From NCBI RefSeq assembly GCF_009914755.1, contig NC_060934.1: a stretch of 64,000 nucleotides of DNA; one strand, given 5' to 3'. A program made the position numbers and the translations under genes. Positions 34,753-62,470 of the stretch are shown here, piece after piece. The notes beneath the pieces were generated by a model. The model searched no databases, was not told where the DNA came from, and saw nothing but the letters and a program-made list of their open reading frames with translations. How positions within the stretch are numbered: the first letter of the stretch is position 1; every line of letters begins with the position of its first letter. The stretch comes from the human T2T-CHM13v2.0 reference genome, Homo sapiens.

Positions 34753-35189
34753 AGGACTCCACTTTTGGTTGGCTAATTAGCAACAGCTCCAATCATCATG
34801 CTCTCTCAAGACAATATTTAAAGGCTGGAAGGGCTGCTTTTGTTCACATGTTTCTTTTAAATAGGGAGAAAACTTGGAAGCTTGCAGTAATCTTCCTGTG
34901 ACATTTTATTGGCTGGATTATACCACATGCTCATTTCTAAACCAGTCACTAGGAAAGCAAATGTAATTACTGTGATTAGCTTAGAATAATGATTTCTCTT
35001 TTTGAGATGGGATGGGGTAGTGGAATAATGAATATCTAAATAAGCTTGTGTTTCTGCAGCAAGAAAGAATAATGTCTTTGCATAGGAAGCCAGCAATGTT
35101 TTCTGTAGGGATTCATTGGAAAAGTTTAAGCAAGGGAGTCACAAGATTAGATTTGAGTATCAGGGCATACTGGTCATGGTATAAGGCAG

Positions 35190-38504: not shown

Positions 38505-39105
38505 TACTCTGTTCTAACTGCTTCTAGTTCATTTGTCTAGAAATTGTAGTTTCTAAGATTGACACTGTCCACTTACACTAATTCTGCTAATAATACAATT
38601 TTCTGTCAGTCTTATAGGGTTCTGTTTGGATTATGACTATTGTATACTGTAGTTCACTTGTAGATACCAAATTGTGATAAATTCTATCTTTGCTTGCACT
38701 TGAGAACTATAAAGGAGTGGAAATAAGAGTTGTTAATGCATTAATTTCCTACCAATATAATGCTTAATAATAATTTTACTATAGTCTCAATGTATGGTCT
38801 CAAATGAATGCTTTATGACAAATCATCTGAGTCTTTGTAACAAAGTATTGGAGTATTATGCTTTTTTAAACAAGACCTGAATCATGCACGAAAGTGTGCA
38901 TGATTCTTTTAAATTAAGTTGAAGTCTCATGATGTCTCCCAGGCTGCTTTCAGACTCCTGGGCTTCTCAGGTGATCCTCCTGCCTCACCTTCCCAAGTAG
39001 CTGGGATTACAGGCATGTGCCATCATGCCCTCTTATGTTTTTAATATTCTGTATTTTTTATTTATATTTGTTGATTTAATATATTTTACTTTTTTTCTTT
39101 AATAG

Positions 39106-39136
39106 TGGATGTGAGTTCTGTAGAGTCTATATTCAG
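39106..39136 (+). pseudogene. ANKRD30B-like 31-nt exon
   Basis: tttaatag|TGGATGTGAGTTCTGTAGAGTCTATATTCAG|gtaaga = VDVSSVESIF(S). Confidence 0.88.
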
Positions 39137-41918: not shown

Positions 41919-41991
41919 TCTGTTCAGCAAACTGACTATTGAAAATTCACAGTCTACAAAACTTAAGGAAGACTTTAATCTTGCTACCAAT
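41919..41991 (+). pseudogene. ANKRD30B/20A-like 73-nt exon
   Basis: LFSKLTIENSQSTKLKEDFNLATN|gtaaaa. The expected acceptor reads AA; another AG lies 9 nt downstream (41926-41927). Confidence 0.85.
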
Positions 41992-42592
41992 GTAAAATGG
42001 TCTCTTGTGAAGTTGATTTTCTCAGTTGGAATCTAGTTCTGTATAGTATTTACTTTTCATGTTTAGCAGTGGTGTAATTACCATTATTTCATGTTGGTAA
42101 TATAAAGTTGGTCAGATAAAAACATTTTATGGAAATATGAGTAGTTGATTTAACGTTTTTTTTTTTTTACTTTAGTAAATAACAAATGATTGGTAAATAT
42201 TTTGAGGGTGTGAGTGCCAACAAAAGGAATGGACTGGAGAATACATAGTGATAGGAACATTATATTAGAAAAAACTTTTCCACAATACAGAATATATAAA
42301 ATCTGGTAAAGGTTTATTTGGATAAGTGTACTTACTGTGACTTTTAAAATTATTCTATTGTCACTTAAAAAACTCATGCTTAAATTTATATTTAATGGAT
42401 CCAGTTACTTACTATAGTAATCAAGGAATCTCTCTGATACTGTTCAGTTCCAAAACTGTGCCACATAGCATATAGGGTTTTTTTTGCACGTATTATTTTG
42501 ATATCATGTAGTTTTTAGGAGAGAGCTTTTTCTCAGTTTCTCTTCTTGGTTCTTTAATTACACCAAAATAATATTAGAAATTGTGAAAATTT

Positions 42593-43046
<454 letters not shown>

Positions 43047-43743
43047 ATCTCTAATTTTAAAAAATAATTGTAGAAATTTAGAAATGTAAATTCTCTTTCT
43101 CAGAGTCTGTATTATTAAGGCATGCCAGTGTGTTTTCTAAATTATTTCATTAAAAGTATATTTTACACTCTTCATCTCAATGAAGAATGCAGGTTTTACC
43201 CCAAGTAAACAACCAGTGTATGGAAGCAGAGAATCTTACTAAGCATATGGTAGAATTTTAATTTCAGAATTTTTAAATTGCAATTTTTAAACATATTGTT
43301 AAAAGATTTTTTATCACATTTGAAAATTTTAAATTTTGGAAGATTTTGTATTGAGTTGTTTAAATAATCGTTTTGAAGTTCTTGCATCACTATAAGATAC
43401 TGCAGGTTAGAAAACATACTTGTGTGCAGCCTAGTGTACCCAGAATACAGTCTTGCCTATAAAAAGAGTTTTAAAAGTTTTCAATGTGAATAAATAAGCA
43501 GAAAAATGAATTTTTATGTAATGAAATGTTACAAGTAAGATAATATGCATAATATATCTTATAATAAAATCTAATGCATTTCCAAAATATGGCTTAAATG
43601 TATATTTTCTTTTAATATTTAGAATGCATAAATTCATGTGAGTTATCTTGAGAAAATATGTCTTAAATAAGACAATAAATCAGAGGTATGTAGTAAACAG
43701 GAAAGAAGGTTACACTATATCCTCCAAGTGGAGTTTAGATTAA

Positions 43744-44104
<361 letters not shown>

Positions 44105-45289
44105 GAAACTCATGTTCTATTAAACATATCATTTCAAGGAATACATTACTCTTTAGAATTCTGATTACCAAAACTTTCTTCAGGTGAAAAGTTTACGAAA
44201 CATTCCTTTTTAAATTTTGTCTCTCTGTAGTAAAAATGTTCTAGCTTTTAGGTATTGGCTGAAGACCATGTTTAACTAATTGAGTGTCTTATTATATAAT
44301 AATGAAATTAAAATCTTTATTACACAGGTATTAACAAAATAACTAATTGTAATGCAAATACTGACCAGCATTATAGGAATATATTATGAACAGAAGTCTG
44401 TATTTTACGTATTTCATCACATGTCTTATATAGTAGTTGTTTTTCCTTTTCTTTCATGACTGAAGCTCATACTTGATTGACTGGTTATGTCTCTTGTTTG
44501 TTTCTCCCTCCTCCTTCACCTTTTTAAAAATGATTTACCCCAGACTTTTTTCTCACAGAATACATTTCTTCAGTGTCTGCTTTTTAGGGCATCTCTGTCT
44601 CAATTGTCAGCATATTTATTTACAGGTTTCTATTTAGTTGCTATGTATTATTTTCATTAATCAATCATTGCCGCCCCCCATGATTTATTCTTTTTTTCTC
44701 TGTTTCTTGGAAGAAGCAGAATTTATACAATTATTTATACTTAGCTTTTTGCCACACAGAATAGAAACAACCTATGCTATTTCAATGCAAACCCAGTTAA
44801 ATAAGGTACTATTAAAAACTAAGCTCTCACACTTTTCCATACAAGAGGTAATTAATACAACTGTAAATTGTGAAGAGATATTTCAAAATATAACATGTAA
44901 TTTAACATTTTAAATTTTAATTATTTCTACAATTCTATAATCTATGTAATGGTAAATTTTTGTCCTAGGTTATTTTGGTTAAAAAAAAATCTAATGGATA
45001 CCACCATATTTGTATAATAATAAATTAGATGAAGGGGGATGAAAGGAAATTATTCATTGAAGAAGGGTAAGATAAACATAGAGACTACATGAGAGAGTGA
45101 AGATGAGACAGACTATTATAAAAACACAGCAAAAATAGTGGTTTAAATGAGAGCAGGAACTCTCTAGAATAAAAGATATAATATAAATTATTTAAAATAA
45201 AAATTAAGAAAACATAGCCAGGTAATAAAACACTGCTCAGGTGTTTTTGACTGACTTATAGCTGATTTTAACAAAAAGCTGAAAGAAAA

Positions 45290-45490
45290 TATAAGGACGA
45301 GTATAGGTAAGAGCAATTTGTTGTACTCTTTAAAATACCTAGTAGAGAATAGTTTGAATGTTTCTAGCATAAAGGAAAGATAAATACTTAAGGTGATTAA
45401 TATCTCAACTATTCTGATTTCATTATGTGAATGTATTAAGTTATTATATGTACCCTCGAAACATATACATTTATATTGTGTGAACAAAAA
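45290..45490 (+). mobile_element. L1MA-like 3' end
   Basis: gaatgtttctagcataaaggaaagataaatacttaaggtga..atgtaccctcgaaacatatac. Confidence 0.6.
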
Positions 45491-45861
45491 AATTATTAAC
45501 AAGGAAAGAATTCTCACTTCTTTTAGTAACTTTATGTTTTATATTTAATCTAGTCATACTTATATTAATGCAGAATGCAAAGTTAAATTGGTTTTAGGCC
45601 TTGTCAGCTTTATTGTGAATTATTAATTTTTGACTCTTTGGTTTCTGGTTTAAGATTTCTAACTTAATGTTTGACATATTCTTAGGTTATTTAACTAATT
45701 TATCCTACTCTTTGATATAACCTTGGTAGCTGTTTTGAATATTTTTGTTAATAGAGTATAAATAAATAAGCATTTTATTTAATCTTATTAAAATTAAATT
45801 TTCTGATCATATGAACAAGGTTTTTAATCTATATCTCTTAAAAGAGAAAAATCTTTTTTCT

Positions 45862-46139
<278 letters not shown>

Positions 46140-46973
46140 TCAAAGAAATAAATGTAGAAATTAATCTCTAGAAATATTCTGACATCTTTTGCTCATAATA
46201 TCTGTATGTAATGGTATTATATGCACACATCAAACGAATGTAATCAATCTTTGTGAATTTTTTAAAGTAAAGTACCTATTATTATAGAATCATATGTAAG
46301 GAAAATTGTTAACAGAGTAAACAAACTTATCATTGGAAGAATTTTTTTGCTCTTAAAAATATCTCTTGCAATCGGGATATTTTATATTATTTCCAGGAAG
46401 CCTTAACTTTAGTCTTCATAATTATTAAACCTTGCACATATATTTGTTTATTTCTAAAACTCAGGAATCCTGTCGACTTGAATTTTGTAGTTTCTTTCTT
46501 CACTTCTCCTGTAAATACTGGATCCTGCTTGACAATCATAGATGTATGTAAAAACTATTAAATCTTCAACTTGAATAATTATTGGTTAATTTTCTTTATA
46601 TGAGATCTTTTCTCCAATTTTAAACTACCATCCTATATGGTGTAAATAGGCAATGTGAGCTAGCATTCTATTGTTTACAGGAACATAAGAAAAACATGTG
46701 AATTTTAAAACAGGGTTTCACATTTCTATCTCACTTTATAATGGTAATTAAAAATGCCTCATAATTCTATAATTAGGTAAGCATTTCTCTTGTACAATTA
46801 AAAATTTCAAAGTTAATTTTTATAAAGGTTCTTTTGCAGAATCTTGGTGTTTTAGAATTAAATGTTTTCATTCAATTCAAAGATGCATATTGCAATATTT
46901 CAGAAATATTTACCTATATAAATAAAATTATTTTCTTGAAACAAATTTGGAAATATATAACTGAGAAACTTAA

Positions 46974-47309
<336 letters not shown>

Positions 47310-48451
47310 ATTTCACTTTCAAAAATTCAACAGTCTGCATAGGTTACTTAATTCTACCCATTTAGCCTATCTTATAAATATTTATCTTATCACTATGTAA
47401 TTTTCCTCATGTAGGTCATCTACTCATACTCCAAATGTATTTATCCAGATCTTTCTTCCAAGCCCCTTGGGTGCCCCAAATCTTATAGGTCTCAAACTGA
47501 AAGCATCATTTTTATTCTGTTCCTGTTTTCTGACTCTTCGTAATCTACTCTGTCATCTGGTTTCCCCATCCTAGGAAATAACACCTAGGAAGTAGCGGTG
47601 AAACACTCAAGCACTTAAACCTGCACTTCAACCCTCCCCCACATCCTAAACTTCAACCCTTTTCCATGTCACCCATCCAGTCACACACCTAATTTTGTAT
47701 TTTCTACCTTCTTATAATTTTCCATATCTTATTACCATAATTAACTCTCTACCTATAATTTTGAAGTACTCCTTTCTAGTTTTGCCCCATCTCCCCATGT
47801 TCATCTATCTTTACATCGCTGGAAGGGTCACCTTTCTAAAATGTATTTGTAATGATGTAACTCATCTGCATATTGAGTGAATACCCATTACACGAAGGGG
47901 TAAGTTCACATTCTAGCGTGACACATATCTTATATGGTTTGGCCCCATTTTATCTCTTCATCTCTTTCCTCTGTGTTCCAGTTTTACGACATCACCTTGG
48001 CACCCCTCAATTGCCATGTTGTTTCATGCCTTATTATTTTACACATGCTATTGCACCTAGAGTCTTTGTATCCTGACTCTGCACTTTGTCTGTCCTTCCC
48101 AATATGGCCCCATTATGGCAGCATTTTCTATGCTTTTCAGATAAAACTGATTGTTCTCTCCTTTGTGCCCTTATGTATTATATTGACTTAAATTGTAGAA
48201 CTGGTGAATTATACTTTTCTGTTCTTATTTGTTTTCACGTCTCTAACATTTCTTGAATATAGGCCAGAATCTATCTTCTGTGTATATTTCCTGCTTCTCC
48301 CAGGATAGTGCCTGTGATTCGATAGATACAATGTATGGGTTTTTTTGTTTGTGTTTTGTTTTGTCTTACTGACAAATTGAGTGAATGAGTGAATAAATAA
48401 AGTTTTTTCTGAAGTTGTTTTTTGGTGCTTTTTGGTTTTTGTTTGTAATAG

Positions 48452-48530
48452 AAGGAAGCAACAAAGACAGCAACTGAACAACAAGAAAATGATATTGGAA
48501 TTATTGAATGAGCGCCATAAGATCTAACAA
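48452..48530 (+). pseudogene. ANKRD20A-type 79-nt exon with two stops
   Basis: gtaatag|KEATKTATEQQENDIGIIE*AP*DLT|gtaatg. TGA at 48509, TAA at 48518. Confidence 0.82.
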
Positions 48531-48840
48531 GTAATGACAATTTTATTTTTTTATACCAAAATAATAGAAGTGGTAAGTTAGTATCTCTGAAAATTTTTCT
48601 ATGCTTAAATGCTATTATTTAGAAAACAATTTTATAGACTGAAATACAATGTCTACCTTAAAAAATACTTTTTGCTATCTTTCATCATACTATCAATTTT
48701 CTGAACCTGCTTTGATTCTGAAATTCTATATTTGCTATTACTTTTTGAAATATTCATAAATGGAAATAGATTTGTGTATGTTTTTATAATTTACAGTAAT
48801 AAATGTTCTCATATGTGTGTCTGTGAATACCATTTTGTAG

Positions 48841-48902
48841 ATAAGATGCCCACATCAGAGTCAGGACAAAAAGAAGATACGAAATCACCTTCAGTTTCTG
48901 AG
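48841..48902 (+). pseudogene. ANKRD20A-type 62-nt exon
   Basis: ttttgtag|(N)KMPTSESGQKEDTKSPSVSE|gtaccg. Confidence 0.85.
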
Positions 48903-51184
48903 GTACCGTGTATTGTTGTTATTTTAAAACTTAAGTAATGAGTAATCTTAAAACATAAAAAGATGACTTTGTCTCACGTCTGCATGTGTCCATAAGCCAT
49001 AAGAAATTTTCTGACATTTATCAGAACATACTTTATAATCATATGCCAAGTAGATAACAGCTGCATAGTGCAATTCTGCTAATTTGCAGGATTAATTTAC
49101 AAAGCCAGTGTAGAATAGAGCAAAAGAAAATAAGGCATAGAAGAAACCAGGAATCTGAGTTCTGAAGATAAGTTTGTCTAAAAACAAAATAATTTCTCTG
49201 CATTCATTTATGGGCAAATACATGATTCTGTGTATATCTAGATGTATGAAAGCTTTACTTGGATTCAGGGAGAAAGAGTTTAAACTGTAGTCTTAGTGTT
49301 GCTCAACTTGGAACTTGAAAAGATAATGCCTGGGACTTGAAAGTATTAGTATATTTCGATTATCCAGTATAGATCTGAAGGAACATTTCAGGAGTTGGAT
49401 AAACATGAGAAATAGGACACCTGTAAAACTATAACACAACAATTTGGTTGAGTAGTATTTTAATAAGTAGACATTCTTTTCACAAATAGAACTCTTTGAG
49501 TCCCTTTGTGGCAGCCATGTTTGCAACCACATAGGTATCAGATAATAATGATGTATTCCAAGGTCACAGCTATGGATGTGGAAGAGATAGGAAAGGCCTC
49601 ACCACTTAAGATAGAAGCAGCAGCTGCATAGTGGTAACAGCAATGAGTGGATGTCAAAAGGTAAGTCTGTATTTTGATTCTGTCACTTACTAGCTATGGG
49701 AACTTGGAAAAAATCATTTAACCTAATCAAATACTAGTAACCTTGTATATAAAAATAGTGCTCATATCTACCTCTTAGGTACGTGAGATGAAATAATGTT
49801 GTAACAAATGTGAAAACATTTTGTAAACTGGGAAGTCTGTATCCAAATGTAAGACAAAACGATCAAAGTGGCATTTATGTGAAAGCAGAATTGTTAGCAC
49901 AAGAATAGGGAGTAAGAACAGGCATGTGGATTTCTAATTTTGGGTAAGAGGATGGTAACTTTCAGCAGGCTACCACTGCAGATTTTCCATAGAAATATAG
50001 CAGTTTGGAAAATTAGACTTTCCTGTTGAGATTTTCAATGTTTTGACCTGGAGTAATTTCTTTCTAAGTACCAACTGTGTGCTAGGCAGTGAGTCTCTGA
50101 ATATCCAAGATGAGGGATTATGCTGCAGTAGTAGGAAGATAATAACAAATGAAAAACACTTATAAATCACTGTAACTTTTTCTTAAAAACAAAACAGAGA
50201 ATGTTTGGTTAGAGAAAATTGAAGAACTTTATAATTAGCATGGGTATGGGAGTGGCAGTGGAATTCTATGGTCAGAGTAGATCTTTCTGCGACTGCCATT
50301 CAATCTCCTGTCTCAAAGATGAGGAGTAAGCCATATGAAAGTCTAGGAGGAAGACATTCTGAACAGAGAACAGTGGACCATATTTGTTCATCATTTTGTT
50401 CTTAACAACCTAGAATGACTAGGAAGCAGAAAGTGGGGTAACCACCAACATCATCATCATCCTCATTATTCTAAGGTGAAGAAAAATCTGCAAATATGTG
50501 TCTGGCACATGTTAGATGTTTCACGAATACATGTTTTTATTTTTCTCTTTTTATGAAGGCTTGCTCTACTTTTCTGAAGTTATGTCTTAAGAATCAATTG
50601 CATACTTTATCTAATGATTGTTTTCATTTAAAAATAACAAATATATATTTTCCTTATGAATCTTTCATTTTATTCAAGCAGTTATCAGCAAAAACTTATC
50701 AAAATTATTCTTAAGCCTTTGTTTTCCTAAATGAAACAGATTTAGAGTTCTTTTCCTACTCCGCATGACATACTCTGAAAATTCTCGTGCCATGCATAGT
50801 TTTTAACAAAAATTCTGTAATTATGCATATGTCAAATGTTTAATCATATTGTATTTTGTTTGCAATGCCCTATTATTTTTGGTGAGGACTACAGTGTAAG
50901 GCAGATACTTTGAAGTTAATTCCTTTTGAAATATACACACGTGAATTTTTTTGTGAATATGATTTATTTTTCATGCTCAGTAACCCAGTCAATAGCCACA
51001 TGAAGATAAAAGATAAGCGTGTTCTACAGAGCATATGCAAGGTTTTCTCTTGAAATGTCTTGGTTTTCAATATGTGAACAGCCTGAAATCTAATTGCCTT
51101 TAAAGTAAGGAAATGTGTTTTAAAAAAGATTTGAAATAAAAAATATTGATGCTTGTCATTATTTTTAAATCAAAATTATTTATT

Positions 51185-51338
51185 GAGGCAGAATGTGGTG
51201 GCTTATGCCTGTAATCCCAGTATTTTGGGAGGGAAAGGTGGGTGGATCACTTCAGGTCAGGAGTTTGAGACCCACCTGGCCAACATGGTGAAACCCTGTC
51301 TCTATTAAAAATACAAAAAAATTAGCCAGGTGTGGTAG
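51185..51338 (+). mobile_element. Alu left arm, cut at the start of the right arm
   Basis: Ends ..ttagccaggtgtggtagg. Confidence 0.88.
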
Positions 51339-51447
51339 GCAATCAATATATATTTGTTCAGTGTATGAATTAGTGATTGTTAAAATATGCTGTCCTTTAT
51401 ATCCCAAAGTACTAATATATTTTATTTCTATCTCCTCCTCAAGACAG

Positions 51448-51658
51448 ATTCAACTAGCCTATCAATATTCTTGGGTGCAGTTCCTTCTCATGAAAGAGCA
51501 AGGGAACTTAAAAAATATCACTGTGAACAACTTACAGCAAAAATAAAACAAATGAAAAATAAGTTTTGGGTACTACAAAAGGAACTATCAGAAGCAAAAA
51601 TAAAATTGCAGTAAGTGAATCAAAAGGTTAAATGGGAACAAGAGCTCTGCAGTGTGAG
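51448..51658 (+). pseudogene. ANKRD30 coiled-coil exon
   Basis: gacag|DSTSLSIFLGAVPSHERARELKKYHCEQLTAKIKQMKNKFWVLQKELSEAKIKLQ*VNQKVKWEQELCSV|gtatga. TAA at 51612. Confidence 0.9.
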
Positions 51659-52420
51659 GTATGACATCCTAGTTTTAAATAAATATTTCAACTATTTATA
51701 CTAAAATTATGTAGGATACTTTTTGTAATAGCTGACTTACCTTCTGAGGTTTAACTGCAGAAAAAAACCTGTCTTGTAGAGTGTCAAATTCCTTTAAATA
51801 ATACAAGTTCTTAACTTTGAATACTTCTACTGATAATTAAATGCATATTTATTTAAATCACAATTTTAATGACTATATAGAAGGCCATTATTTGGAAATC
51901 CCATTATTTACTTAACAAATTAATTTTTTTGATTTTTAATTTTTTGTATTATAAGTGCTGCAAGGCATAACTGCAAGTAAATATTTTTCTACCTTTCTAA
52001 TTATTGATTTGGAATAAATTCTTCAATATAAAAATATTTGGTCAAATTATAGGAAGTTTTAAAAAGTTCTTTGTTCATTACTTCCAAATTGTTCTCAAGA
52101 AAATTTATATTCATTTACAGCTCAACAAAGAGAGTGTGAAACGGCCATTCCTCTCCCCCCAAGAATCAATTTCCTTTAATTGTACACTTTTAATCTTAAT
52201 GTGTATGGAATATAAGGAAAATACTTGTTTATATTTTTAATCTTTTCCTTTCAGAACTGTGATAACTAAAAGTGCTTGTTACAATGTCTCAACTTATAAT
52301 TTATAAATATAATTCTTAAAATTATATTTTTAAAAATAGAATATCTATAGAATATTCTCAGGAAAAAGGAAATGAAAGGGCTTTGGGAAATTTTATCTGT
52401 CTAAATATAAGCAGCACTAA

Positions 52421-53289
52421 TATTGGGGGAACTGGCCAGCAGCCCGCAATGCAACAGGGCTCCTTCTTTGTTCCCAGGCGGATTGGCAGGTTGAGAAATA
52501 AAAGACACACACAAGATAGTGAAAGCTGTGTCCAGGGGGGTCACCACCTTCTGGTCCTGTGATGCCGCCAATGCACTGGATATACCAGCATTTATTATTA
52601 AGTTTAGTGAGGGTGGGGATAGGTTAGTGAGGGATTTATGGTCATTTGATTATGAGGTGAGATGGTCACGAGGGTGAAGTAATTTAACATAACATCAGTA
52701 TGCAGAAGTACAGTATACAGAGATAAGAATTTACAATATAGTGTGTGCATCAGCAATTTCTAACAGAGCCTTAAAACAGAAACACAGTCTTTCCATAACC
52801 TATGATTAGCAAGATATTAATCAGCAGTAACAGTTGCAGCAAAAGCTGGTTGCAAACAATCCATAGAAACAGGACGTGAAGCTAGACAACTGGTTAGACC
52901 ACAAATTCTCAGAAGGGAGTATGCTTTAACCCTAAAGAGGCCTAGAAGAGCCGAGGCAAGATAAGGGCATTTATAGCCCCATCTTATCCATATAAACAGG
53001 CGCCCCTCATGCGTTCGCTTATAGGCTCTCCACAAGAGTCACATTCCATTCCCAGAGCTATGAACATCTGCTTTTCTGGGATAGGAATCATGGTGATGTG
53101 AAACCTCCCTGACTGCATATCCGTTCATAGGCTCTCTGCAGGGGGAAGCGTATCACGCACTGTTGGCTTATTCTGGCAGTCCAACCTGGCATTGTCTTTA
53201 CACAATCCTGCATGCAATTTTGTATTTACAATAATCAGGAGTATTTCACCTTTTATTCCAAAGCAATAGTTTCAAGGGGTCTCCCTACA
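52421..53289 (-). mobile_element. Solo ERVK LTR (MER11D/HML-7-like) with 6-bp TSD CACTAA
   Basis: Minus strand starts TGTAGGGAGACCCC..GAAACTATTGC; CACTAA at 52415-52420 and 53290-53295; 869 bp. Confidence 0.85.
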
Positions 53290-53669
53290 CACTAAGGCTT
53301 CTAGTATGGGGTCTTGTATAGGTTAGACATCAGGGTGTAAATCAAATTTTTGTATGTAGTCAAAGTGATTAATCTTTTATTTTATGCTTTTGCATGTGTT
53401 GTAATCCAGGGAAAGTTTGTTTCAATTCTGAAGCTCTTAAAAATTCTCTAGTCATTTCTTTTTTACTTTCATGAATTCATTGTGTTCAAATAAATGTTTG
53501 AACTTTGGGGAATTTATGCTCTATAGCATTTGAAGTTTTGATTCAATGGTTCTTCAACTGATACCTACTTACAGAAACCCTTTCAGTGGATAAATGTAAA
53601 AATTATTCTTTAAGAGGAACCATGATATCCCATTTTATTGAGTGCTAGCTAAAAATTTATTTTATTTAG

Positions 53670-54565
53670 GTTTCTCATGCTTATGAAAATGAAAATGATC
53701 TCTTACATGAAAATGGCATGTTGAAAAAGGAAATTGCCATGCTAAAACTGCAAATTGGACATACTAAAACATCAGCACCAGGAGAAGGAAAATAAATACT
53801 TTGAGGACATTAAGATTTTAAGAGAAAAGAATGCTGAACTTCAAATGACCCTAAAACTGAAAGAGAAAACATTAACAAAAAGGGCACCTCAGTATAGTGG
53901 GCAGCTTAAAGTTCTGATAGCTAAGAACACAATGCTCACTTCTAAATTGAAGGAAAAACAAGACAAAGAAATACTGGAGAAAGAAATTGAATCATACCAT
54001 TCTAGACTGGCTTCTGCTATACAAGACCAAGATAAAGTGTGACATCAAGAAAAAACCAAGAACTTGCTTTCCACAGTGCTCATTTGCAAGGAAAAATGAA
54101 TGTTGATGTGAATAATATATAACAATGAGAAGCTTCATCAACCACTTTCTGAAGCTCAAAGGGAATCCAAAAGTCTAAAAATTAATTTCAATTATGCAGG
54201 AGACGCTCAAAGAGAAAATACATAGGTTTTAGAACATGCACAAAGAGACCTAAGTGAAACATAGTGTCAAATGAAGAAAGCTGAACACATGTATCAAAAC
54301 AAACAAGATAATGTGACCAAGCACACTGAACAGCAGGAGTCTGGAGCAGAAATTATTTCAACTACAAAGCAAAAACATGTGGCTTCCACAGCAATTAGTT
54401 CAGGTGCATAAGAAAGCTGATAACAAAAGCAAGATAATAATATTCAGTTTTGAGAGGAAAACGCAACATCACCTCCTGAAAGAGAAAAATGAGGAGATAT
54501 TTAATAACTGTAACCATTTAAAATAATGTTTATACCAATATGAAAAACAGAAAGCTGAAAGAGAA
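53670..54565 (+). pseudogene. ANKRD30 long coiled-coil exon (ANKRD26/CCDC144-family domain), frameshifted
   Basis: tttag|VSHAYENENDLLHENGMLKKEIAMLKL/..LKHQHQEKENKYFEDIKILREKNAELQMTLKLKEK..LLKEKNEEIFN..QYEKQKAERE|gtatca. Several indels and stops. Confidence 0.92.
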
Positions 54566-54842
54566 GTATCAAAAAAAATAAATATTTTTCAACCTTCCTG
54601 AAAGAAAATTTAAAGTCATATTTGGCCTTAGATAAAGGCTGAATCTAGTTTAATATAGATAATAAATATATTTACCATGTCAGCTTAGAAACATGGCTTA
54701 TTTCCACCAAATGCAAGTTAAAGCTGAGAGATGTTTTACTTTAAGACATTGTGTCACTTATGAAATTTTAAGAATTTAAGTTAAAGGTTTTTAATAGATT
54801 AACATTAATGACATTGGCTTATACTGCTGAAATAAAGGTTTT

Positions 54843-55153
<311 letters not shown>

Positions 55154-56258
55154 AATAAAGGTTTTAATATCTCTTTGTGGCCACATTTTATGACCACGAT
55201 GAAACAGATAAATGGGAATGCCCATATCAGCAATGAGTATTTTGAAATTGATTCAACAATTTACTTTGACAGTTAATTCTAAATTTTCCAGAGGAACTGA
55301 AGTGTATTTGAAGTATATTTTGAAGTGTACATTTCTGCATCTTGTAATACTACTTTTTCAGTAACTTTTTGTATATTTTAGTTGGTAGAATTTTATTTTC
55401 ATTTATGTCAATTTGACTTAAATCTGAACATATCTGAATCTCAAATTATGTATTGTTATGACAACTTAATTTTTTAAAGCCATCTGTGTTTTATTAAATA
55501 ATAGCTTAGGACAAATGTAGTGGATTTTAGCAATATCAAATTTGATTTAATCATCCCACTGGTATTTATAATTTACTTTGAATATTGTTACAAATAATTT
55601 GCTCATAATTTCTATTTCAAGGCTCAAAGACTGTCATGTGGATAGAACTTTGTCCCAGAGAAAGATCATTGTAGCTATCTGTGATTTATTAGCTTTGCAT
55701 TGGATCCCCATTTTTCAATTCATGGGGGGTGGCAGGGTTCATGTATAGTACAAAAAAAGTGAGTAGAGGAGAGAAACTTAGCAGCTGCGGTCAGGAGGGA
55801 TGTGGAGACCAGGTTACCTAGGGCCTCTAAAGCCTTTGAAACAAAAATACTTTTATTCTGAGATAGAAACCTGTTGGAAAAATTTCACCAGGTGATTGAG
55901 TATGTGAGGAACTTTGATGTTGATTTGTGCTTCAATAAAAAAGAAGGAAAGCATTCCACAGCATAGAATTTACCACCACTAGTCCTGCCCACATATTTTC
56001 TTGAGACTTCAGTAAGTTGTGAAGCATTACAGATTCATTAGGGGACAAATGACTAGTGGGATGAATCTGGTGTCTAGTAAGAGAGTACCAGTTTGGCAGG
56101 AAGATAATACCTTCTTGTGTCCTTAAGTGGATTCAGTAATAAGCAGGAATGTGTACACATAAAGAAAATAAGCTGAACCAATATATTTGGTGATATTTTT
56201 GAAAGTAAATATTGTTAATTTGATAAGGTGATTTACAAATCAATAACAAACATGTCAG

Positions 56259-56408
56259 GTCACTGTGAGACAACTTCAAAAAAAATTGGCTGATCTCAAT
56301 AAACAATGTGTGTCTGAGGCTTCACTAGAAGCTGCATCACATTACCACATTAATCTCAAAGTTGAGGTACAGGATTTAATGAAAAAATGATTTCGAATTG
56401 AAAGTCAA
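56259..56408 (+). pseudogene. ANKRD30B/ANKRD26-type 150-nt exon
   Basis: tgtcag|VTVRQLQKKLADLNKQCVSEASLEAASHYHINLKVEVQDLMKK*FRIESQ|gtatgt. Confidence 0.87.
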
Positions 56409-56780
56409 GTATGTATTAAAAGTAACATGCCAACAGTGAATCTATAGCTGGTGAAATTATATAAATTGTTTTATGATACTAATCTCCATGGGGAGACTTC
56501 TTTTATATGTTCATTATAATTAGTTGTATTACAATTTTATTATCATTATAATGTGCTTATTTTTAAAACTGTGGCTATAATTCTGCAATGTTTTTCTTAT
56601 GATTAAAAATTTTCTCATAATATCTGCCCTCAAGAAGGTTAAAAATTATACATCATTTATCCCACAAGTTGAGAGACTATTCTTCGGATAAACAGTATTT
56701 TTCAGTGATTTATGTTGCCATGGTGAGGCAAGCGGTATTTAATCAGAGAAGAATGTTTAATGGAATATTCCAGAAAATTA

Positions 56781-57221
56781 TCTGTCTGAGAGGCTGCCTT
56801 AAATACTTCCTAAAATGCTTGCTGAAAAGTCCGGCAAGATGAATATGACTTGGAGGCTGGGTGGCAGGCCGGTTTTTTGGAGGCCGGCCTAGAGCCTGCC
56901 TGCATGGGAGTCTGGTCGAATGACAAGTCTTCTGGCAGGGGGAGAGGCTTGCTGGAACGCTGATCGAAATGCTGGCTGCATGGAAGGCCGGTCTTCAGGC
57001 TGGCTGGCTGGCTAGGAGGCTGACATAGAGGCTTGCTGGGAGATTTGCCAAGAACCCGGGTGAGAGGCGGCCGACTAGGAGGCTGGCGGAGAGTCCGTGT
57101 GAGAGGCTACCTCAAATTCTTGCTAATTTTGCTTGCTGAGGGCCTGGTAGGCTGAGTCCGGCTAAGAGCCTGGTTGTACCAGGCTCGCTTGTTAGGAGGC
57201 TGGCTACAAGATCCCGTGAAA
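56781..57221. repeat. Degenerate GAGGCTGGC-based satellite, left block
   Basis: Recurring gaggctggc/gcttgctg motifs; higher-order unit starts at 56788 and 57101. Confidence 0.8.
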
Positions 57222-57423
57222 GCCTCACGGCTCTACTCAACAAATTTCTCTAGAAAGAGGCCGGAGTGTACAAGGGCTTCACTAGACCACACTTTTTACT
57301 GATGTTGGGCCGGATGTGGTGGCGATTAAGGGCAAGGGCGAGCGGCGGGGGCTGGGGCTGGGGCTGGGGCTGGGGAAGGGCGAGTGAGAGGAGCGGCCTC
57401 TCTCTTAAAAGGTGGCTGCAGCC
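57222..57423 (+). promoter_or_regulatory. GC/CpG-rich ANKRD30-type promoter/5'UTR remnant with (GGGGCT)n G-quadruplex motif
   Basis: GC-rich segment directly 5' of the exon-1 ATG; five G-runs of 4 or more at 57347-57375. Confidence 0.55.
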
Positions 57424-57642
57424 ATGCAGAGGCTTTCTGCCACTGCTGTCAAGGGCGTGACAAGCCTGGAGTGCCAGAGAGCCTTCACTCAGCTGGTCTA
57501 CCACCAAAGACTCTTAAGTCATCCACTATAGGGATATCAGAAAGATGCACAGAGCTGCCTCCCGGGGCCACGCCTGGAAGCTTGCAGGGGATGATGTGAA
57601 GACGAGGACCATCGACCTGAACATAAAAGATGCGAAGAAGAG
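57424..57642 (+). pseudogene. Displaced ANKRD30-family first coding exon (ANKRD30BL/30A-like)
   Basis: gcagccATG then MQRLSATAVKGVTSLECQRAFTQLVY/..DS*VIHYRDIRKMHRAASRGHAWKL..TIDLNIKDAKK(R). Frameshift near 57500; donor reads ag|gcgccg. Confidence 0.88.
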
Positions 57643-57936
57643 GCGCCGTGCCCTGCCTGAGCTGGGGCTGCAGGAGGAGGTGACAGCTGTGGGAGGATCG
57701 CCCCTTCAGCGTGGGGTGTGGTGGGTGCCCCCGGGACAAAGGCAGCAGGTGGAAGAGTGGGTCGGCAGCGGGGCAGAAATCTTGGGCCCCGGTGTCTGGG
57801 CCTTCTTCCTGGGCAGGCCCCCAGTCCTGGGATGGGGGCGCCCTGCAGGGCACAGGGACAAGGCCTGCAGGGCAGAGGGACAAGGCCACCTTAAAATCAA
57901 CCTCAAACTTTGGCTGCCTTCTCCTTCACTCCCACT

Positions 57937-58851
57937 GAGGCTGTTGGAAACGCTGGCTGCAAGGGAGGCTGGTTTTGAGGCTGGCTAGTCAGGAGGCCGC
58001 CTAAGAGGCTCTCTAAGAGGCGTACTGGGAGGCTGGCCACGCCATTGGTGGCATGGGAGGCTGATTCTGAAGCTGGTTGGCTAAGCGGCTGGCTAACAGA
58101 CTTACCTAGAGGCTGGCTGGAAGGCTGGCCAAGGCGCGGGCTGCATGGGAGGCTGGTGTACTGAAGGACTCTCTTGAAAAGTAGCATAGAGGCTTGCTGA
58201 GAGGCTGGCTCACTGGGAGGCTGGCCTAGAGCCTGTGGGAGAGGCTTTCTGTCTGAGAGGCTGCCATAAACGCTTGCTAAAAGGCCTGCTGAGATCCTGG
58301 CAGGCTGAATCTGGCTAAGAGTCTGAATGCAAGTCTGGCTTGTTAGGAGGCTGGCCTAGAAGCTGGCTGCATGGGAGGCTAACCAAGAGGCTGGCGAGGA
58401 AACTGGCAGAGTGGCAGATTGTCTGGCTGTGCAAGAGGCTTGCTGGATGGCTGTTAAAAACGCTGGCTGCATGGGAGGTTGGTCTGGAAGCTGATTGTCT
58501 GGGAGATTCGCTTAGAGACTTTCTGAAAGGCTGGATCGGAGGCTGGCTGTCTAGGAGGCTGGCCAAGAGCCTGCGGGAGAGGCTGTGTGAGAGGCTGCCT
58601 TAAATGCTTCCTAAAACGCTTGCTGAAGAGTCCGGCAAGATGAATGTGACTTGGAGGCCTGGTGGCAGGCCGGTTTTTTGGAGGCTGGCCTAGAGCCTGG
58701 CTGCATGGGAGGCTAATCAAATCACGAGTCTTCTGGCAGGGGAAGAGGGTTGCTGGAATGCTGTTCGGAATGCTGGCTGCATGGGAGGCCAGTCTTCAGG
58801 CTGGCTGGCTAGGAGGCTGACACAGAGGCTTGCTAGGAGGCTTGCCAAGAA
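57937..58851. repeat. Degenerate GAGGCTGGC-based satellite, right block
   Basis: Same motifs; unit starts at 58256 and 58589. 58589-58851 repeats 56788-57053 (offset 1801). Confidence 0.82.
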
Positions 58852-59462
58852 TTAGTTCAACCATCGAGGAAGGAAGTGTGTTGACTCCTCAAAGATCTAG
58901 AAGCAGAAAGACCATTGACCCAGCAATCCCATTGCTAGGTATATATCCAAAATAATATAAATCATTATATTATAAAGAGACATGCACATGTATGTTCACT
59001 GCAGCACTATTCACAACAGCAAAGACATGAAATCTACCAAAATGCCCATCAATGTTAGACTGGATAAAGAAAATTTGGTACATGTGCACGATGGACTATC
59101 ATGCAGGCCTAAAAAGAAACAAGATCATGTCCTCTGCAAAGACATGGATGGAGCTGGAAGCCATGATCCTCAGAAAACTAATGCAGGAACAGAAAATCAA
59201 ACAACACGTATTCTCACTTATAAGTGGGAGCTGAATGATGAGAACACACAGATCCATGAGGGGTAACAACACACAATGGGACCTGTTGTGGGGGCAGGAG
59301 GAGGGAGAGCATCAGGAAGAATAGCTAATCAATACTGGGCGTAATATCTGAGTGATGGGTTGATCTGTGCAGCAAACCACTATGACACACGTTTACCTAT
59401 GTAATGAACCTGCACATCCTGTACATGGACCCCAGAACTTAAAAGCTGAAGAAAAAAAAAAT
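58852..59462 (+). mobile_element. 5'-truncated L1PA 3' end
   Basis: gacccagcaatcccattgctaggtatata..WIKKIWY..gacatggatggagctggaagcc..acctgcacatcctgtacatg..A tail. Confidence 0.9.
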
Positions 59463-59803
59463 AAAGAAACTTTAGTGCTGTCCAGGGATGCACACTGAAC
59501 AGAAAAAATGGCCTTGTGATTTGCTTTATAATATTCCTGTAAAGATAGATGAACAGATAGATGAACAAAATGTAGGACAATCTTGATCACAGAAATTGAA
59601 TAATGGGTATTTTAGTGTTACTTTTACTATTTTCTCTACTTTTGAATAGGTATACAAATTGTAATTAAAAGATAAAAATAAATATATTAATCCCTGCTTT
59701 GAAACCACATACAAACAGTACTCTGAAAAGATTCAAGCAATTTACATGGTACTATATGGATCTCCCTCGCACCTCTGTATGTAACATTTAAATATTTTGC
59801 AAC

Positions 59804-60038
59804 TGGCCAGGCACGATGGCCCATGCCTGTAATCCCAGCACTCTGGGAGGCGAAGGCAGGTGGACCACCTGAGGTCAGGAGTTCAAGACCAGCCTGGTCA
59901 ACATGGTGAAACCCTGCAGGAGAATTACTTGAGCCCGGGAGGCGGAGTCTGCAGTGAGCCAAGATGGCGCCACTGCTCCAGCCTGGGTGACAAGAGCAAG
60001 ACTCCATCTCAAAAAATATAAATATAAATAAAATAAAA
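59804..60038 (+). mobile_element. Alu with central deletion
   Basis: gaaaccctg joined directly to caggagaatt. Confidence 0.88.
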
Positions 60039-60856
60039 GATCTTCTTTCTTAAATTCTTACTTCATGTTATTAGCACCAAATCTGAAGGGCTCCATTACA
60101 GAAACTCTTTGAAATAAGACACAAATGTATTTTTGAGAAACCACACAAGATGTAGTAATTATCATAGCTGTTAAAAAGAAATGTGCTCATAAACAAATAA
60201 CAGTAAAGGATTAGAGGCTTTCGGTCACACCAGGAAGTGATATTAATTATAATTCTTCTGTTAATTCTGAAAGAAAATATATAAACCTACTTCTAACAAA
60301 CTTCCCATAAAACAAAACAACAACAAAACTCTTGGAGTTGAGAATGAACAGCAGAAGTTCTAGAAAAGCAGAAGTTCTAGAAGTTCTAGATAGCAAGCAA
60401 CTGTGGAACGCAGCGCACTGCCTTCTGCACTGCCCAGTTTCTGGCACCTGACTCACAGGTGCCAAATGGCTGCAGGATTACGACGTTGGAAGTAGTGAAT
60501 ATTTCCTCAATACTTGCAGTGGTTCATAGCAATGAAAAATCTAAGATTTCCTCTCTGCCTTTCAGGAGCTTTAAGGGAAGCAGCAAATACTACTAGCTTC
60601 TCACAAGTGGTTACGTTCCAAGATCCACCTAAAGCCATGAGCAGTACAAAGAGAGCCAAGCTTTTATTGTTTACAAGTAAATGATTAATAAACTGTTATT
60701 AATAAAATATTGTTTTAGCTATAATAGCCAAAATATTTTCCAATGGCCATATTATGTGAGCAAAATAACTCGACAGTCTCCTCCTTCTATGAGAAAGATG
60801 TAAGCTTGCTTGGTGGCAAGGGTCAATGATTCTATTAGGTTTAGCTGATTCTTTAT

Positions 60857-61130
60857 CTTTTTTTGTTAGGGGCAGGGTCTTACTCAGTTGCCCAGGCTGG
60901 AGTGCAGTAGCCTCAAACTCCTGGGCTCAGGCAATCCTCCCATCTCAGCCTTCCGAGCAGCTGGGACCACAAGCACATGCCACCACACTTGGCTAATTGT
61001 TAATGCTTTTGCAGAGATGGGGCCTCACTCTGTTGCCTAGGCTGGTCTCAAACTCCTGGCCTAAAGCCATCCTCCTGCCTCGGCCTCTCAAAGTGCTGGG
61101 ATTCCAGGTTTGAGTCACTGTGTCCAGCCA
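60857..61130 (-). mobile_element. Alu (J-like)
   Basis: Diverged antisense dimer. Confidence 0.86.
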
Positions 61131-62470
61131 GGTTTAGCAGGTTCTTTTTACCATGCTCAATTTCCAAAAAAACACAGGAGGGCAGAGGTGAGGCCTCTTA
61201 TGCAGATCCTTCTTCTCAGGTGTCATCTCCTCACGAATCCTAGTGACATCACAGTGGTATCTCTAATGATAAACAATGTTCACCACCTGACCTATTTTAT
61301 TGCATGACTTAAAAATATAATGATTTGAAAAGTGGGAGAGACTCTTTATTGATCACTGGCTGATTTATAATCAAGTATTAGGGGAGATCAAATATCACAA
61401 AAAGTAATGAGGAGTAGAAACTTAAAATTTTCAATTTTTTCAATATATGAATTTTTAGAGACTTAAAGTAGTATAAATAGTTAAAAACTAAGTACATGAA
61501 TCCTGCAAGTAACATACAAACAGTGACCTAAGTTTGTAGTTGCCAAATGAGTTGCACCTAAAAGCTGGTCTTTGAAGACTCAGTGAGTGCCACGCACCCC
61601 ACTTCAAATCCATAGGGATATAAAACGTCTGACACATGCTGAATATGGTAACGACATGACATAATAAGTAATTAGAAGCTCCCAAAGGGGTTCTAGCACA
61701 GAATGAGCGCTAAATAAATAAATAATAAAAACAAGAAAAATGCTTAGTACCTTAATAAAGTAGTAAATAATAAAAAATGACAATGATAATAACAAGGAAG
61801 ATGTTTAGTACCTTAAAGATACCTGACAGTTATTTGTTAAGTGGACAAGTGGATAAATAAATAAAAAACATTTTTTAGGAAATTCTGTTGGAAAAAATGC
61901 AGAAATTCAATAGGGACAGCTCTACTGTATTATGAGCACCTTAAAGACCCAGACTATGTGTATTCCATCTTTGTCTCCTGCAACTTGCAAAACCTAACTT
62001 ATCGTTTGATAATTTATCCTTTGATAAACATATAATAAAGATGTGCTCATACAGTTCATATTGTACCATGCATTGTGTCACATTTAGATATCACAGTAGC
62101 ATTTTTGTTATTGTGAAAAATGTTTGTAATTTTATTATAATTTGTTGAGCCTAGAGTTAAGCTATTTGAATACTTATAATGATAATATTTTGGCTATTAG
62201 AAACAGAGTATCTTGTTGTAACAAAATTACTATTAACACACTAATTATCCAGCAGATAGAACAACATATCTTGTTCTAATGAAGTAAATATATCTTATTT
62301 GGTTTCAGCTTGGAATGAAGTTGATAATAGTGAGACCTTGTTGGTACAAGACTATGTAACACAACCTGCACTTCTCAACAAAAAATTGCTTTTCTGACTT
62401 CTGCACTCAGTAGGTATCTTTGGAAAATAATCTCCTATTGGTACTGAGGCACCCTGGCTAAGTTTTGTAA

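What the first reader, a model, noticed from the sequence alone, without database searches (positions are those of the whole stretch)
56781..58851. ANKRD30 promoter and exon 1 captured inside a satellite with a ~1.8-kb period, downstream of the gene body
Seen: a ~715-bp piece (57222-57936) holds a GC-rich 5' region, the first coding exon of an ANKRD30-family gene and ~290 bp of intron-1-like sequence. It sits between two blocks of GAGGCTGGC satellite, 1 kb 3' of the last recognisable exon, on the same strand. The gene body upstream lacks exon 1, and no ankyrin exons follow this copy. Segment 56788-57053 recurs at 58589-58851 (offset 1801). Inference: this is ~1.15 units of a composite macrosatellite whose unit carries an ANKRD30 promoter/exon-1 cassette, i.e. 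a portable promoter module at a duplicon edge. I do not recognise it as a named repeat.
Basis: partly seen in the sequence, partly recalled or inferred. Interest (0 to 1): 0.8.

Follow-up and report, generated by a model that had tools for sequence, protein, structure and literature searches.

The report
Dead ANKRD30 exon-1 scrap in minisatellite
A broken 715-base copy of the start of an ANKRD30 gene sits inside a small, one-of-a-kind GC-rich repeat block at the edge of a duplicated pseudogene; it looks like an old relic of DNA rearrangement, not a repeated or mobile promoter unit.

Summary
Positions 57222-57936 are an ANKRD30-family upstream region, exon 1 and 294 bp of intron 1. A 12-bp-period GGCTGG-rich minisatellite flanks it at 56784-57221 and 57937-58851. 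Segment 56782-57053 recurs at 58583-58851 (offset 1801, 90% identity).

- In T2T-CHM13 the satellite and the exon-in-satellite arrangement occur once. None of the 12 other exon-1 copies has this satellite beside it.
- The second "unit" stops about 170 bp before the point where the exon would recur, so nothing shows the exon belonged to a repeating unit.
- The exon is dead: a 2-bp frameshift, stop codons, and a splice donor changed from GT to GC. CpG observed/expected is 0.38.
- The two repeat ends differ by K2P 0.106. That is as old as the paralog split, so there is no sign of a homogenised array.

The "duplicon edge" idea is right. Homology to ANKRD30A's 3' flank stops at 56783, and a 5'-cut L1 begins at 58852.

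New finding: ANKRD30BP3 is one ANKRD30 copy split by a ~28.3-kb inversion (33328-61615). Its real exon 1 and ankyrin exons lie inverted downstream, which explains the missing exon 1.

Verdict: an ordinary junction relic of low interest. Other human and ape assemblies could not be checked.

The parts
56247..56783 (+). Last stretch of the ANKRD30 pseudogene body. It holds the last exon-like ORF (56247-56390, CCDC144C coiled-coil region) and the 3' intron/flank up to the duplicon breakpoint at 56783/56784.
   Evidence: Pfam CCDC144C profile positions 427-470 of 534, E 1.6e-8. 90% identity to chr10:37264239-37265716 (ANKRD30A 3' flank), ending at 56783. The chr8:43.77M and chr13:13.7M relatives (71%) end at the same base, while ANKRD30A and the chr8 copy stay homologous to each other beyond it.
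56784..57221 (+). Left block of degenerate 12-bp-period GGCTGG-rich minisatellite (438 bp).
   Evidence: Junction with the gene flank shows 2-nt (CT) microhomology.
57222..57423 (+). ANKRD30-family sequence upstream of the start codon (promoter/5'UTR-like, 202 bp). It includes a (GGCTGG)5.3 run at 57344-57375.
   Evidence: Aligns to the region upstream of the ATG in 12 paralogs. Paralogs continue further upstream, the window copy does not. CpG o/e 0.54. TRF.
57424..57642 (+). Decayed ANKRD30 exon 1 (coding part, 219 nt): ATG kept, 2-bp deletion frameshift, in-frame stops.
   Evidence: Frame 0 reads MQRLSATAVKGVTSLECQRAFTQLVY. After the deletion, frame 1 reads ..VIHYRDIRKMHRAASRGHAWKLAGDDVKTRTIDLNIKDAKK. 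The ANKRD30A copy reads MEEISAAAVKVVPGPERPSPFSQLVYTSNDSYIVHSGDLRKIHKAASRGQVRKLEK....
57643..57936 (+). Intron-1 fragment (294 bp). The donor site is GC here; 11 of 12 paralogs have GT and 1 has AT. A 22-bp tandem duplication lies at 57842-57887. Homology ends at 57936.
   Evidence: All 12 paralogs continue ...CACTCCCACTTCCTCTCACAGAG..., whereas the window switches to satellite after ...CACTCCCACT.
57937..58851 (+). Right block of the same minisatellite (915 bp).
56782..57053 (+). Copy A of the 270-bp direct repeat. It begins at the left edge of the block.
   Evidence: 266 aligned nt, 19 transitions and 7 transversions, K2P 0.106.
58583..58851 (+). Copy A' of the direct repeat (offset 1801), cut off by the L1 junction.
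58852..59463 (+). 5'-truncated L1 3' end with poly-A, bounding the block on the right.
   Evidence: 82-85% identity to the 40 scored L1 3' ends, out of 17566 first-look candidates. Poly-A at about 59448-59463. Homology to the chr7:66.3M duplicon starts at 59464.
33328..61615 (.). Context: the ~28.3-kb inverted segment that carries the gene's 3' part and the block. The matching 5' part of the gene lies on the minus strand from 61616 to beyond the window.
   Evidence: The + strand homology to ANKRD30A intron starts at L059:1843 (window 33328). The minus-strand homology ends at L059:1846 (window 61616). Both pieces keep ATCC. The outer flanks 32519-33321 (+) and 61132-61618 (-) map 328 bp apart on chr7:68079294-68080947.

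Best explanation
The 2,068-bp block (56784-58851) is an old, non-functional rearrangement relic at the 3' boundary of the ANKRD30BP3 duplicon.

What it contains:
- A minisatellite found only at this locus: a degenerate 12-bp GGCTGG-type motif, about 1.35 kb in total.
- Inside it, a 715-bp truncated copy of an ANKRD30 5' end: 202 bp upstream, exon 1, and 294 bp of intron 1.

Inferred origin:
1. The fragment was most likely captured into a break in the array by end-joining or template switching.
2. At some stage the region carried at least 1.15 periods of an 1801-bp repeat, or of a 1086-bp repeat if the insertion came later. This probably arose by unequal exchange or slippage between satellite units.
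3. Both ends were then trimmed by the junctions with the ANKRD30 3' flank (56783/56784) and with a 5'-cut L1 (58851/58852).
4. Later a ~28.3-kb inversion (33328-61615) flipped the gene's 3' part together with the block. This separated them from the gene's real promoter, exon 1 and ankyrin exons, which now lie inverted downstream.

Shown: the anatomy, the single-copy status in CHM13, the decay of the exon, the breakpoints and the inversion.
Inferred: the capture mechanism, the order of events, and the lack of function.
For: (1) Truncated fragment. All 12 paralogs align to each other beyond both edges of 57222-57936, while the window copy abuts satellite.

(2) The satellite is unrelated to native exon-1 flanks. 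Local alignment scores of 17-22 fall within the range of the Markov-shuffled controls (control means 16-23) for the five flank queries tried (four upstream, one downstream), each against both satellite blocks. GAGGCTGGC occurs 0 times on the exon's strand in all 12 paralog loci of 3.6-10 kb each.

(3) Single copy.
- Genome-wide searches with the left and right satellite blocks hit only this locus, plus weak motif-level matches (65-83%) to one 12-mer array on chr16.
- The 18-mer GCTGGCTGCATGGGAGGC, allowing up to 1 mismatch, occurs 7 times here. The other 22 genomic hits are scattered, none near another.

(4) Decay. Frameshift, stop codons, donor GT>GC. CpG o/e is 0.38 against 0.45-0.55 in paralogs. 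Its terminal branch (0.16) is the longest in the tree, attached at an unresolved base.

(5) Age. A/A' K2P is 0.106, against 0.087 between the gene's 3' flank and ANKRD30A.

(6) Duplicon edge. Homology of three relatives stops at 56783, while two of them continue with each other beyond it. No continuation of the ANKRD30A flank appears anywhere in window coordinates 1-74000.

(7) Inversion. Complementary breakpoints share ATCC. A prediction was tested and met: the two outer flanks are neighbours on chr7. Ankyrin exons on the minus strand at window coordinates 70815-71024 and 71192-71317 (Pfam Ank E 1.9e-8 and 1e-6) and exon 1 at 74873-75544.

(8) RefSeq (hub table) shows no exon or functional element in 51659-62308.
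Against: - Only one human genome was searched. Copy-number variation, or arrays in other haplotypes or apes, cannot be excluded.
- The terminal redundancy of the block (A at one end, A' at the other) is exactly what an excerpt from a longer 1.8-kb-period array would look like. A once-larger array is therefore not excluded.
- No expression, CAGE or methylation data were available, so 'non-functional' rests on sequence decay and annotation only.
- The source copy of the fragment is unidentified. It nests with no living paralog.
- No clear target-site duplication or long microhomology marks the fragment's two junctions, so the capture mechanism is inferred.
- The genome search tool skips simple repeats and very common words, so its negatives are lower bounds (notes).
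Confidence: 0.78

Rival explanations
1. The block is 1.15 units of a true composite macrosatellite whose 1.8-kb unit carries an ANKRD30 promoter and exon 1. It would be present as arrays or be copy-number variable in other haplotypes or species, and able to seed promoters at duplicon edges.
For: A and A' are 90% identical at offset 1801, and they sit at the two cut ends of the block, as an excerpt of a periodic array would. Composite tandem units that capture exons are a described class (Hoyt et al. preprint 10.1101/2021.07.12.451456, passages read).
Against: - One locus and 1.15 copies in CHM13.
- The second copy ends about 170 bp before the exon would recur, so the exon's membership in the unit is unobserved.
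- 10% divergence between the ends, as old as the paralog split.
- Dead exon and donor site.
- None of the other 12 exon-1 copies has the satellite.
- The main text of the T2T repeat preprint has 0 mentions of ANKRD or chr10. Its supplements are closed.
Confidence: 0.07
2. The fragment is not an insertion but the remnant of a second, head-to-tail ANKRD30 copy, or the gene's own displaced 5' end. On this view its surroundings were overwritten by expansion of the minisatellite and by deletions.
For: It has the same strand as the gene body and lies only 438 bp after the duplicon end. The fragment branches at the base of the family, about as deep as ANKRD30A, ANKRD30B and the local inverted copy. 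It could therefore date from the same burst of duplication.
Against: - The gene's own exon 1 is accounted for at window coordinates 74873-75544 on the minus strand. It is complementary to the body at the ATCC breakpoint.
- Both edges of the fragment are abrupt and satellite lies on both sides.
- No further ANKRD30 intron-1 sequence follows on the + strand in 57937-74000.
Confidence: 0.08
3. The GC-rich block is a working regulatory element: an unannotated alternative promoter, an enhancer, or an R-loop-prone element. It would act for the ANKRD30BP3 lncRNA or for antisense transcripts of the inverted 5' part.
For: It keeps about 200 bp of promoter-proximal sequence with an ATG. GC is 0.58-0.60 with strong G skew (+0.24) across 2 kb. 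It lies inside a transcribed pseudogene (hub table).
Against: - CpG o/e is 0.35 for the block and 0.38 for the fragment, below the usual island criterion of 0.6 (recalled) and below all 12 paralogs.
- No RefSeq exon or functional element is annotated here. NR_033891.1 splices across it, from 51658 to 62309 (hub table).
- The donor site is lost.
Confidence: 0.07

Closest known systems
Composite macrosatellites with captured exons (T2T 'composite elements', Hoyt et al.; classic examples such as D4Z4/DUX4, recalled)
   Same: A unit built from satellite plus a gene fragment, with a period in the kilobase range (1801 bp), and an exon plus upstream region inside it.
   Different: Those are multi-copy tandem arrays, often homogenised and copy-number variable. 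Here there are 1.15 copies at one locus, the ends are 10% diverged, the second copy lacks the exon part, and the exon is dead.
GC-rich repeats at pericentromeric duplication boundaries (CAGGG-type repeats; passages of PMC2566985 read, which cites earlier work)
   Same: A GC-rich short-motif repeat block sitting at the seam between duplicons in a pericentromeric mosaic (10q11.22). Here the seam joins the ANKRD30 duplicon, an L1 and a chr7-like duplicon.
   Different: The motif is a GGCTGG-based 12-mer, not CAGGG. The family is not dispersed: only one distant relative array was found, chr16:20541149-20545904.
Filler or captured DNA at rearrangement junctions (end-joining or template-switch insertions; L1-associated junctions); general knowledge, recalled
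   Same: A short (715 bp) truncated piece of a gene from the same family sits between unrelated sequences with abrupt edges. It lies next to other small patches: a 612-bp L1 end and a 2-kb chr7-like piece.
   Different: No diagnostic microhomology or target-site duplication could be shown at the fragment's edges. The donor copy is unknown.
ANKRD30A / ANKRD30B / ANKRD30BL exon 1 and promoter (gene names for the CHM13 places are recalled, not from a tool)
   Same: 77.5-81.2% identity over about 660 aligned columns. The same ATG and the same exon end (AAGAAGAG).
   Different: Truncated on both sides, frameshifted, donor GT>GC, not followed by ankyrin exons, longest branch in the tree.

Membership tests
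Macrosatellite / composite tandem repeat | Kilobase-scale unit repeated head-to-tail in several copies | tested here: not met
   Only 1.15 periods of 1801 bp. No other locus in CHM13.
Macrosatellite / composite tandem repeat | Every unit carries the captured exon | tested here: inconclusive
   The second copy is cut at 58851, corresponding to 57053 in the first copy. That is about 170 bp before the fragment starts at 57222.
Macrosatellite / composite tandem repeat | High identity between units (homogenisation) | tested here: not met
   90.2% identity, K2P 0.106, over 266 nt. This is no closer than the gene flank is to its paralog ANKRD30A (K2P 0.087).
Macrosatellite / composite tandem repeat | Copy-number variation between haplotypes or species | not testable with these tools
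   Only T2T-CHM13 is held. No HPRC or ape assemblies are available.
Minisatellite (GC-rich short-unit tandem array) | Tandem short unit with strand asymmetry over about 0.5-30 kb | tested here: met
   Lag-12 autocorrelation 0.467. TRF period 12/24/40 rows. 1,353 bp in two blocks. GC skew +0.26 and +0.31.
ANKRD30 exon 1 (functional first exon) | Sequence homology to exon 1 and upstream region of family members | tested here: met
   12 of 12 paralogs align at 72-78% by BLAST and 77.5-81.2% in the MSA.
ANKRD30 exon 1 (functional first exon) | Open frame from the ATG and a GT splice donor | tested here: not met
   2-bp deletion, stops, donor GC.
ANKRD30 exon 1 (functional first exon) | Followed by intron 1 and ankyrin exons on the same strand | tested here: not met
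   Homology ends at 57936. The ankyrin exons found are on the minus strand at window coordinates 70815-71317 and belong to the inverted 5' part.
Segmental-duplication boundary | Paralog homology stops at one base while paralogs continue with each other | tested here: met
   ANKRD30A, chr8:43.77M and chr13:13.7M all stop at 56783. ANKRD30A and the chr8 copy align for a further 640 bp or more.
CpG-island promoter | CpG observed/expected above about 0.6 with GC above 0.5 (criterion recalled) | tested here: not met
   o/e is 0.38 for the fragment, 0.54 for the 202 bp upstream of the ATG, and 0.35 for the whole block.

The most novel reading that the evidence does not exclude
The block is a fossil excerpt, 1.15 turns, of a 1.8-kb composite that once existed as a tandem array or a circular/rolling-circle intermediate. 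That composite carried an ANKRD30 promoter and exon 1. Living arrays or copy-number variants of it would survive in other human haplotypes or apes, so gene starts could be spread by satellite amplification at duplicon seams.
Probability: 0.06. Interest if true: 0.55.

Novelty: new member of a known kind. Interest (0 to 1): 0.17.

Why it matters
As it stands the finding matters little. It is one more decayed gene fragment and private minisatellite at a seam of the 10q11.22 duplication mosaic.

Its use is descriptive:
- It marks the exact 3' boundary of the ANKRD30BP3 duplicon.
- Together with the inversion found here, it explains the odd annotation of ANKRD30BP3. The + strand body has no native exon 1 and is transcribed from the foreign start at 31655, next to RSU1P2. 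The native promoter, exon 1 and ankyrin exons lie inverted downstream.

If other genomes showed arrays of the unit, it would become an example of promoter/exon capture by a satellite, and would be more interesting.

Tried and rejected
- Satellite as the normal flank of exon 1: rejected.
- Satellite derived from the 21-bp motif repeated upstream of exon 1 in paralogs: an eye-level resemblance did not beat shuffled controls.
- A regular ~335-bp higher-order unit within the satellite: only weak lags of 0.38-0.40 at 334-370 bp, no better than other multiples of 12. Dropped.
- PRDM9-type hotspot motif CCNCCNTNNCCNC in the block: 0 of the window's 4 matches lie in it.
- Simple L1 retrotransposition explaining the right junction: only a 5-nt AAGAA match as a possible target duplication, and chr7 homology starts right after the poly-A with unrelated unique sequence upstream in chr7. 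Left open.
- Simple inversion inside a larger ANKRD30 duplicon: the continuation of the ANKRD30A 3' flank is nowhere in window coordinates 1-74000, so the duplicon really ends at 56783.
- The 328 bp that separate the two outer flanks on chr7 are absent from window coordinates 1-79000. They were either deleted at the inversion or gained on chr7; this is undecided.
- The bacterial promoter/terminator scan is not meaningful for human DNA and was ignored.
- Literature. 'ANKRD30BP3' occurs in 2 papers, neither about this structure (a passage of PMC6077796 was read). 'ANKRD30' plus 'macrosatellite' gives 2 papers. Passages of one were read (PMC2588610); it lists an 11.1-kb x4 intragenic repeat in ANKRD30A, not this block. 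The other was seen in the listing only.
Full report
**1. What is in the sequence**

Window 56784-58851 is a 2,068-bp GC-rich block (GC 0.58, GC skew +0.24) set in AT-rich surroundings.

Two parts of it, 56784-57221 and 57937-58851, are a degenerate tandem repeat.
- Twelve of the 13 exact GAGGCTGGC matches in the whole 64-kb window lie there, all on the + strand. The expectation is 0.31, and 0 of 100 shuffles reach 13.
- The best short autocorrelation lag is 12 bp (0.467 over 1344 positions).
- TRF reports period-12/24/40 rows.
- Longer lags near 335-370 bp are weak (0.38-0.40), so I do not claim a regular higher-order unit.

**2. The 715-bp piece**

A search of the complete CHM13 genome with 56781-58851 found 12 other places. 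All of them match only 57222-57936, at 72-78% identity (16 of 16 first-look candidates scored).

By position and translation these include ANKRD30A (chr10:37.16M), ANKRD30B (chr18:14.91M) and ANKRD30BL (chr2:132.6M). These gene names are recalled. There is also a copy at chr10:46078873-46079544 on the minus strand, just beyond the window.

In a MAFFT alignment the window copy is 77.5-81.2% identical to the others. All 12 paralogs go on aligning with each other both upstream and downstream. The window copy changes abruptly to satellite at about 57213-57222 and at 57936/57937. It is therefore a truncated fragment with three parts:
- 202 bp upstream of the ATG;
- exon 1 (57424-57642);
- 294 bp of intron 1.

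The fragment is decayed (except where noted):
- The reading frame starts like the family (MQRLSATAVKGVTSLECQRAFTQLVY).
- It then loses 2 bp, continues in another frame (..VIHYRDIRKMHRAASRGHAWKLAGDDVKTRTIDLNIKDAKK) and contains stops.
- The donor is GC, where 11 paralogs have GT and one has AT.
- CpG observed/expected is 0.38, below all 12 paralogs at 0.45-0.55.

A maximum-likelihood tree places the fragment on the longest terminal branch (0.16). It attaches at an unresolved base together with ANKRD30A (0.12), ANKRD30B (0.10), the neighbouring inverted copy (0.085) and a well-supported 9-member clade. It is copied from no living paralog.

**3. The 1801-bp offset**

Segments 56782-57053 (A) and 58583-58851 (A') are 90.2% identical. 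Over 266 aligned nt there are 19 transitions and 7 transversions, giving K2P 0.106.

A begins at the left edge of the block, and A' is cut off by the right edge.

Two limits apply to that reading.
- A' ends at the equivalent of 57053, about 170 bp before the fragment starts at 57222. Nothing shows that the second period ever held the exon. With the fragment removed the period would be 1086 bp.
- The two ends are as diverged as the gene's 3' flank is from ANKRD30A (K2P 0.087 over 710 nt). This is an old duplication, not a homogenised array.

**4. Copy number and relatives of the satellite**

- Genome-wide searches with each satellite block alone returned only this locus. They also returned weak, motif-level matches (65-83%) to one array on chr16.
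- That chr16 array is a 4.8-kb run of a (CTGAGAGGCTGG)n-type 12-mer at chr16:20541149-20545904.
- An 18-mer typical of the block, allowing up to 1 mismatch, occurs 7 times here. The other 22 genomic hits are scattered, none near another.
- None of the 12 paralogous exon-1 loci (3.6-10 kb each) has a single GAGGCTGGC on the exon's strand.
- For the five native exon-1 flanks tested (four upstream, one downstream), there is no similarity to the satellite beyond shuffled controls.

The satellite is therefore not the normal flank of ANKRD30 exon 1, and in CHM13 the arrangement is single-copy. The search tool skips simple repeats and very common words, so these negatives are lower bounds.

**5. Surroundings**

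*Left side.* The + strand pseudogene body is 90% identical to the 3' end of ANKRD30A. This includes a last exon-like ORF at 56247-56390 (Pfam CCDC144C positions 427-470 of 534, E 1.6e-8).
- That homology, and that of two distant relatives (chr8:43.77M and chr13:13.7M, 71%), stops at 56783.
- ANKRD30A and the chr8 copy continue to match each other beyond that point.
- The continuation is nowhere in window coordinates 1-74000.
- So 56783/56784 is a true duplicon boundary, with 2-nt microhomology.

*Right side.* A 5'-truncated L1 3' end with poly-A occupies 58852-59463. From 59464 a piece follows that is related (82-85%) to pericentromeric duplicons on chr7 and chr11.

**6. An inversion explains the missing exon 1**

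- The + strand homology to ANKRD30A begins at window 33328, which equals chr10:37173342.
- From 61616 to beyond the window lies the complementary 5' part of an ANKRD30 gene on the minus strand. It ends at chr10:37173345.
- Both pieces keep the same ATCC.

This predicted that the sequences just outside the two breakpoints were once neighbours, and they are. Window 32519-33321 (+) and window 61132-61618 (-) map 328 bp apart on chr7:68079294-68080947. Those 328 bp are absent here.

The inverted 5' part carries:
- exon 1, at window coordinates 74873-75544;
- ankyrin exons at 70815-71024 and 71192-71317, with Pfam Ank E 1.9e-8 and 1e-6.

So ANKRD30BP3 is one gene copy split by a ~28.3-kb inversion (33328-61615). 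Before the inversion the block already lay just 3' of the gene, on its strand.

**7. Reading**

The most economical account is a relic.
1. A private GC-rich minisatellite sat at a duplicon seam.
2. It captured a 715-bp piece of an ANKRD30 5' end during break repair.
3. It underwent a partial tandem duplication.
4. It was trimmed by the neighbouring junctions.
5. It was later carried along by the inversion.

The anatomy, copy number, decay and breakpoints are shown. The capture mechanism and the order of events are inferred.

RefSeq annotates no exon or functional element in 51659-62308 (hub table), and the sequence features of a live promoter or exon are lost. I could not examine expression or methylation.

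**8. Comparison with known things**

- Composite macrosatellites that capture exons are a described class. I read passages of the T2T repeat preprint 10.1101/2021.07.12.451456. Its main text never mentions ANKRD or chr10, and its supplements are closed.
- This block fails the defining tests for that class that could be run: several copies, and homogeneity between units.
- GC-rich repeats at pericentromeric duplication boundaries are also known (passages of PMC2566985). This block resembles them in place and kind, not in motif.
- 'ANKRD30BP3' occurs in 2 papers of the library, neither about this structure.

**9. Limits**

Only one human genome was available. Dfam, HPRC and ape assemblies, CAGE and methylation tracks were not.

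Noticed in passing
window 33328-61615, with partners at 32519-33327 and 61616-64000 and beyond: ANKRD30BP3 is a single ANKRD30 copy split by a ~28.3-kb inversion. The two breakpoints fall at the same ANKRD30A intron position and both keep ATCC. The outer flanks are neighbours (328 bp apart) on chr7:68.08M. 6 nt (AAAAAC) of filler lie at 33322-33327.
   Followed up: yes
window 61616-64000 and chr10:46068001-46079544 (window coordinates 64001-75544), minus strand: The inverted 5' part of the gene holds exon 1 (74873-75544) and ankyrin exons (70815-71024, 71192-71317). The annotated + strand exons 62309-62409 and 62952-63069 of NR_033891.1 therefore lie antisense within this inverted ANKRD30 intron sequence.
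   Followed up: partly
window 31655-31851 / 31452-31589 (hub table): The annotated first exon of ANKRD30BP3 starts 66 bp from the first exon of RSU1P2 on the other strand, and it lies outside the ANKRD30-derived sequence, which starts at 33328. The pseudogene body appears to be transcribed from a borrowed, bidirectional start. This comes from the annotation only.
   Followed up: no
L044 2149-6904 (chr16:20541149-20545904): A 4.8-kb degenerate array of a (CTGAGAGGCTGG)n-type 12-mer. It is the only other place in CHM13 with motif-level similarity to the block's satellite. Its identity and annotation are unknown to me.
   Followed up: partly
window 59464-61131: Filler between the L1 end and the chr7:68.08M-like piece. 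It is related (82-90% in pieces) to multi-copy duplicons at chr7:57.1M, 64.9M, 66.3M and 67.0M and at chr11:50.35M. Homology starts exactly after the L1 poly-A.
   Followed up: partly
window 57496-57498 and the exon-1 copies at chr14:12.84M and chr22:15.84M: The same TAA stop (..DS*VIH..) occurs in the window fragment and in two paralogs that are not its close relatives in the tree. This is either a parallel change or an old polymorphism.
   Followed up: no
window 57344-57375: A (GGCTGG)5.3 hexamer run sits in the upstream part of the fragment, where most paralogs have a different GC-rich repeat pattern. It shares its core with the flanking satellite motif, possibly by chance.
   Followed up: no
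ANKRD30BP3 region, hg19 chr10:45694889 (PMC6077796, table passage read): A CpG assigned to ANKRD30BP3 (cg26510023) is listed as a candidate parent-of-origin methylation site. I could not place it in window coordinates with the tools at hand.
   Followed up: no
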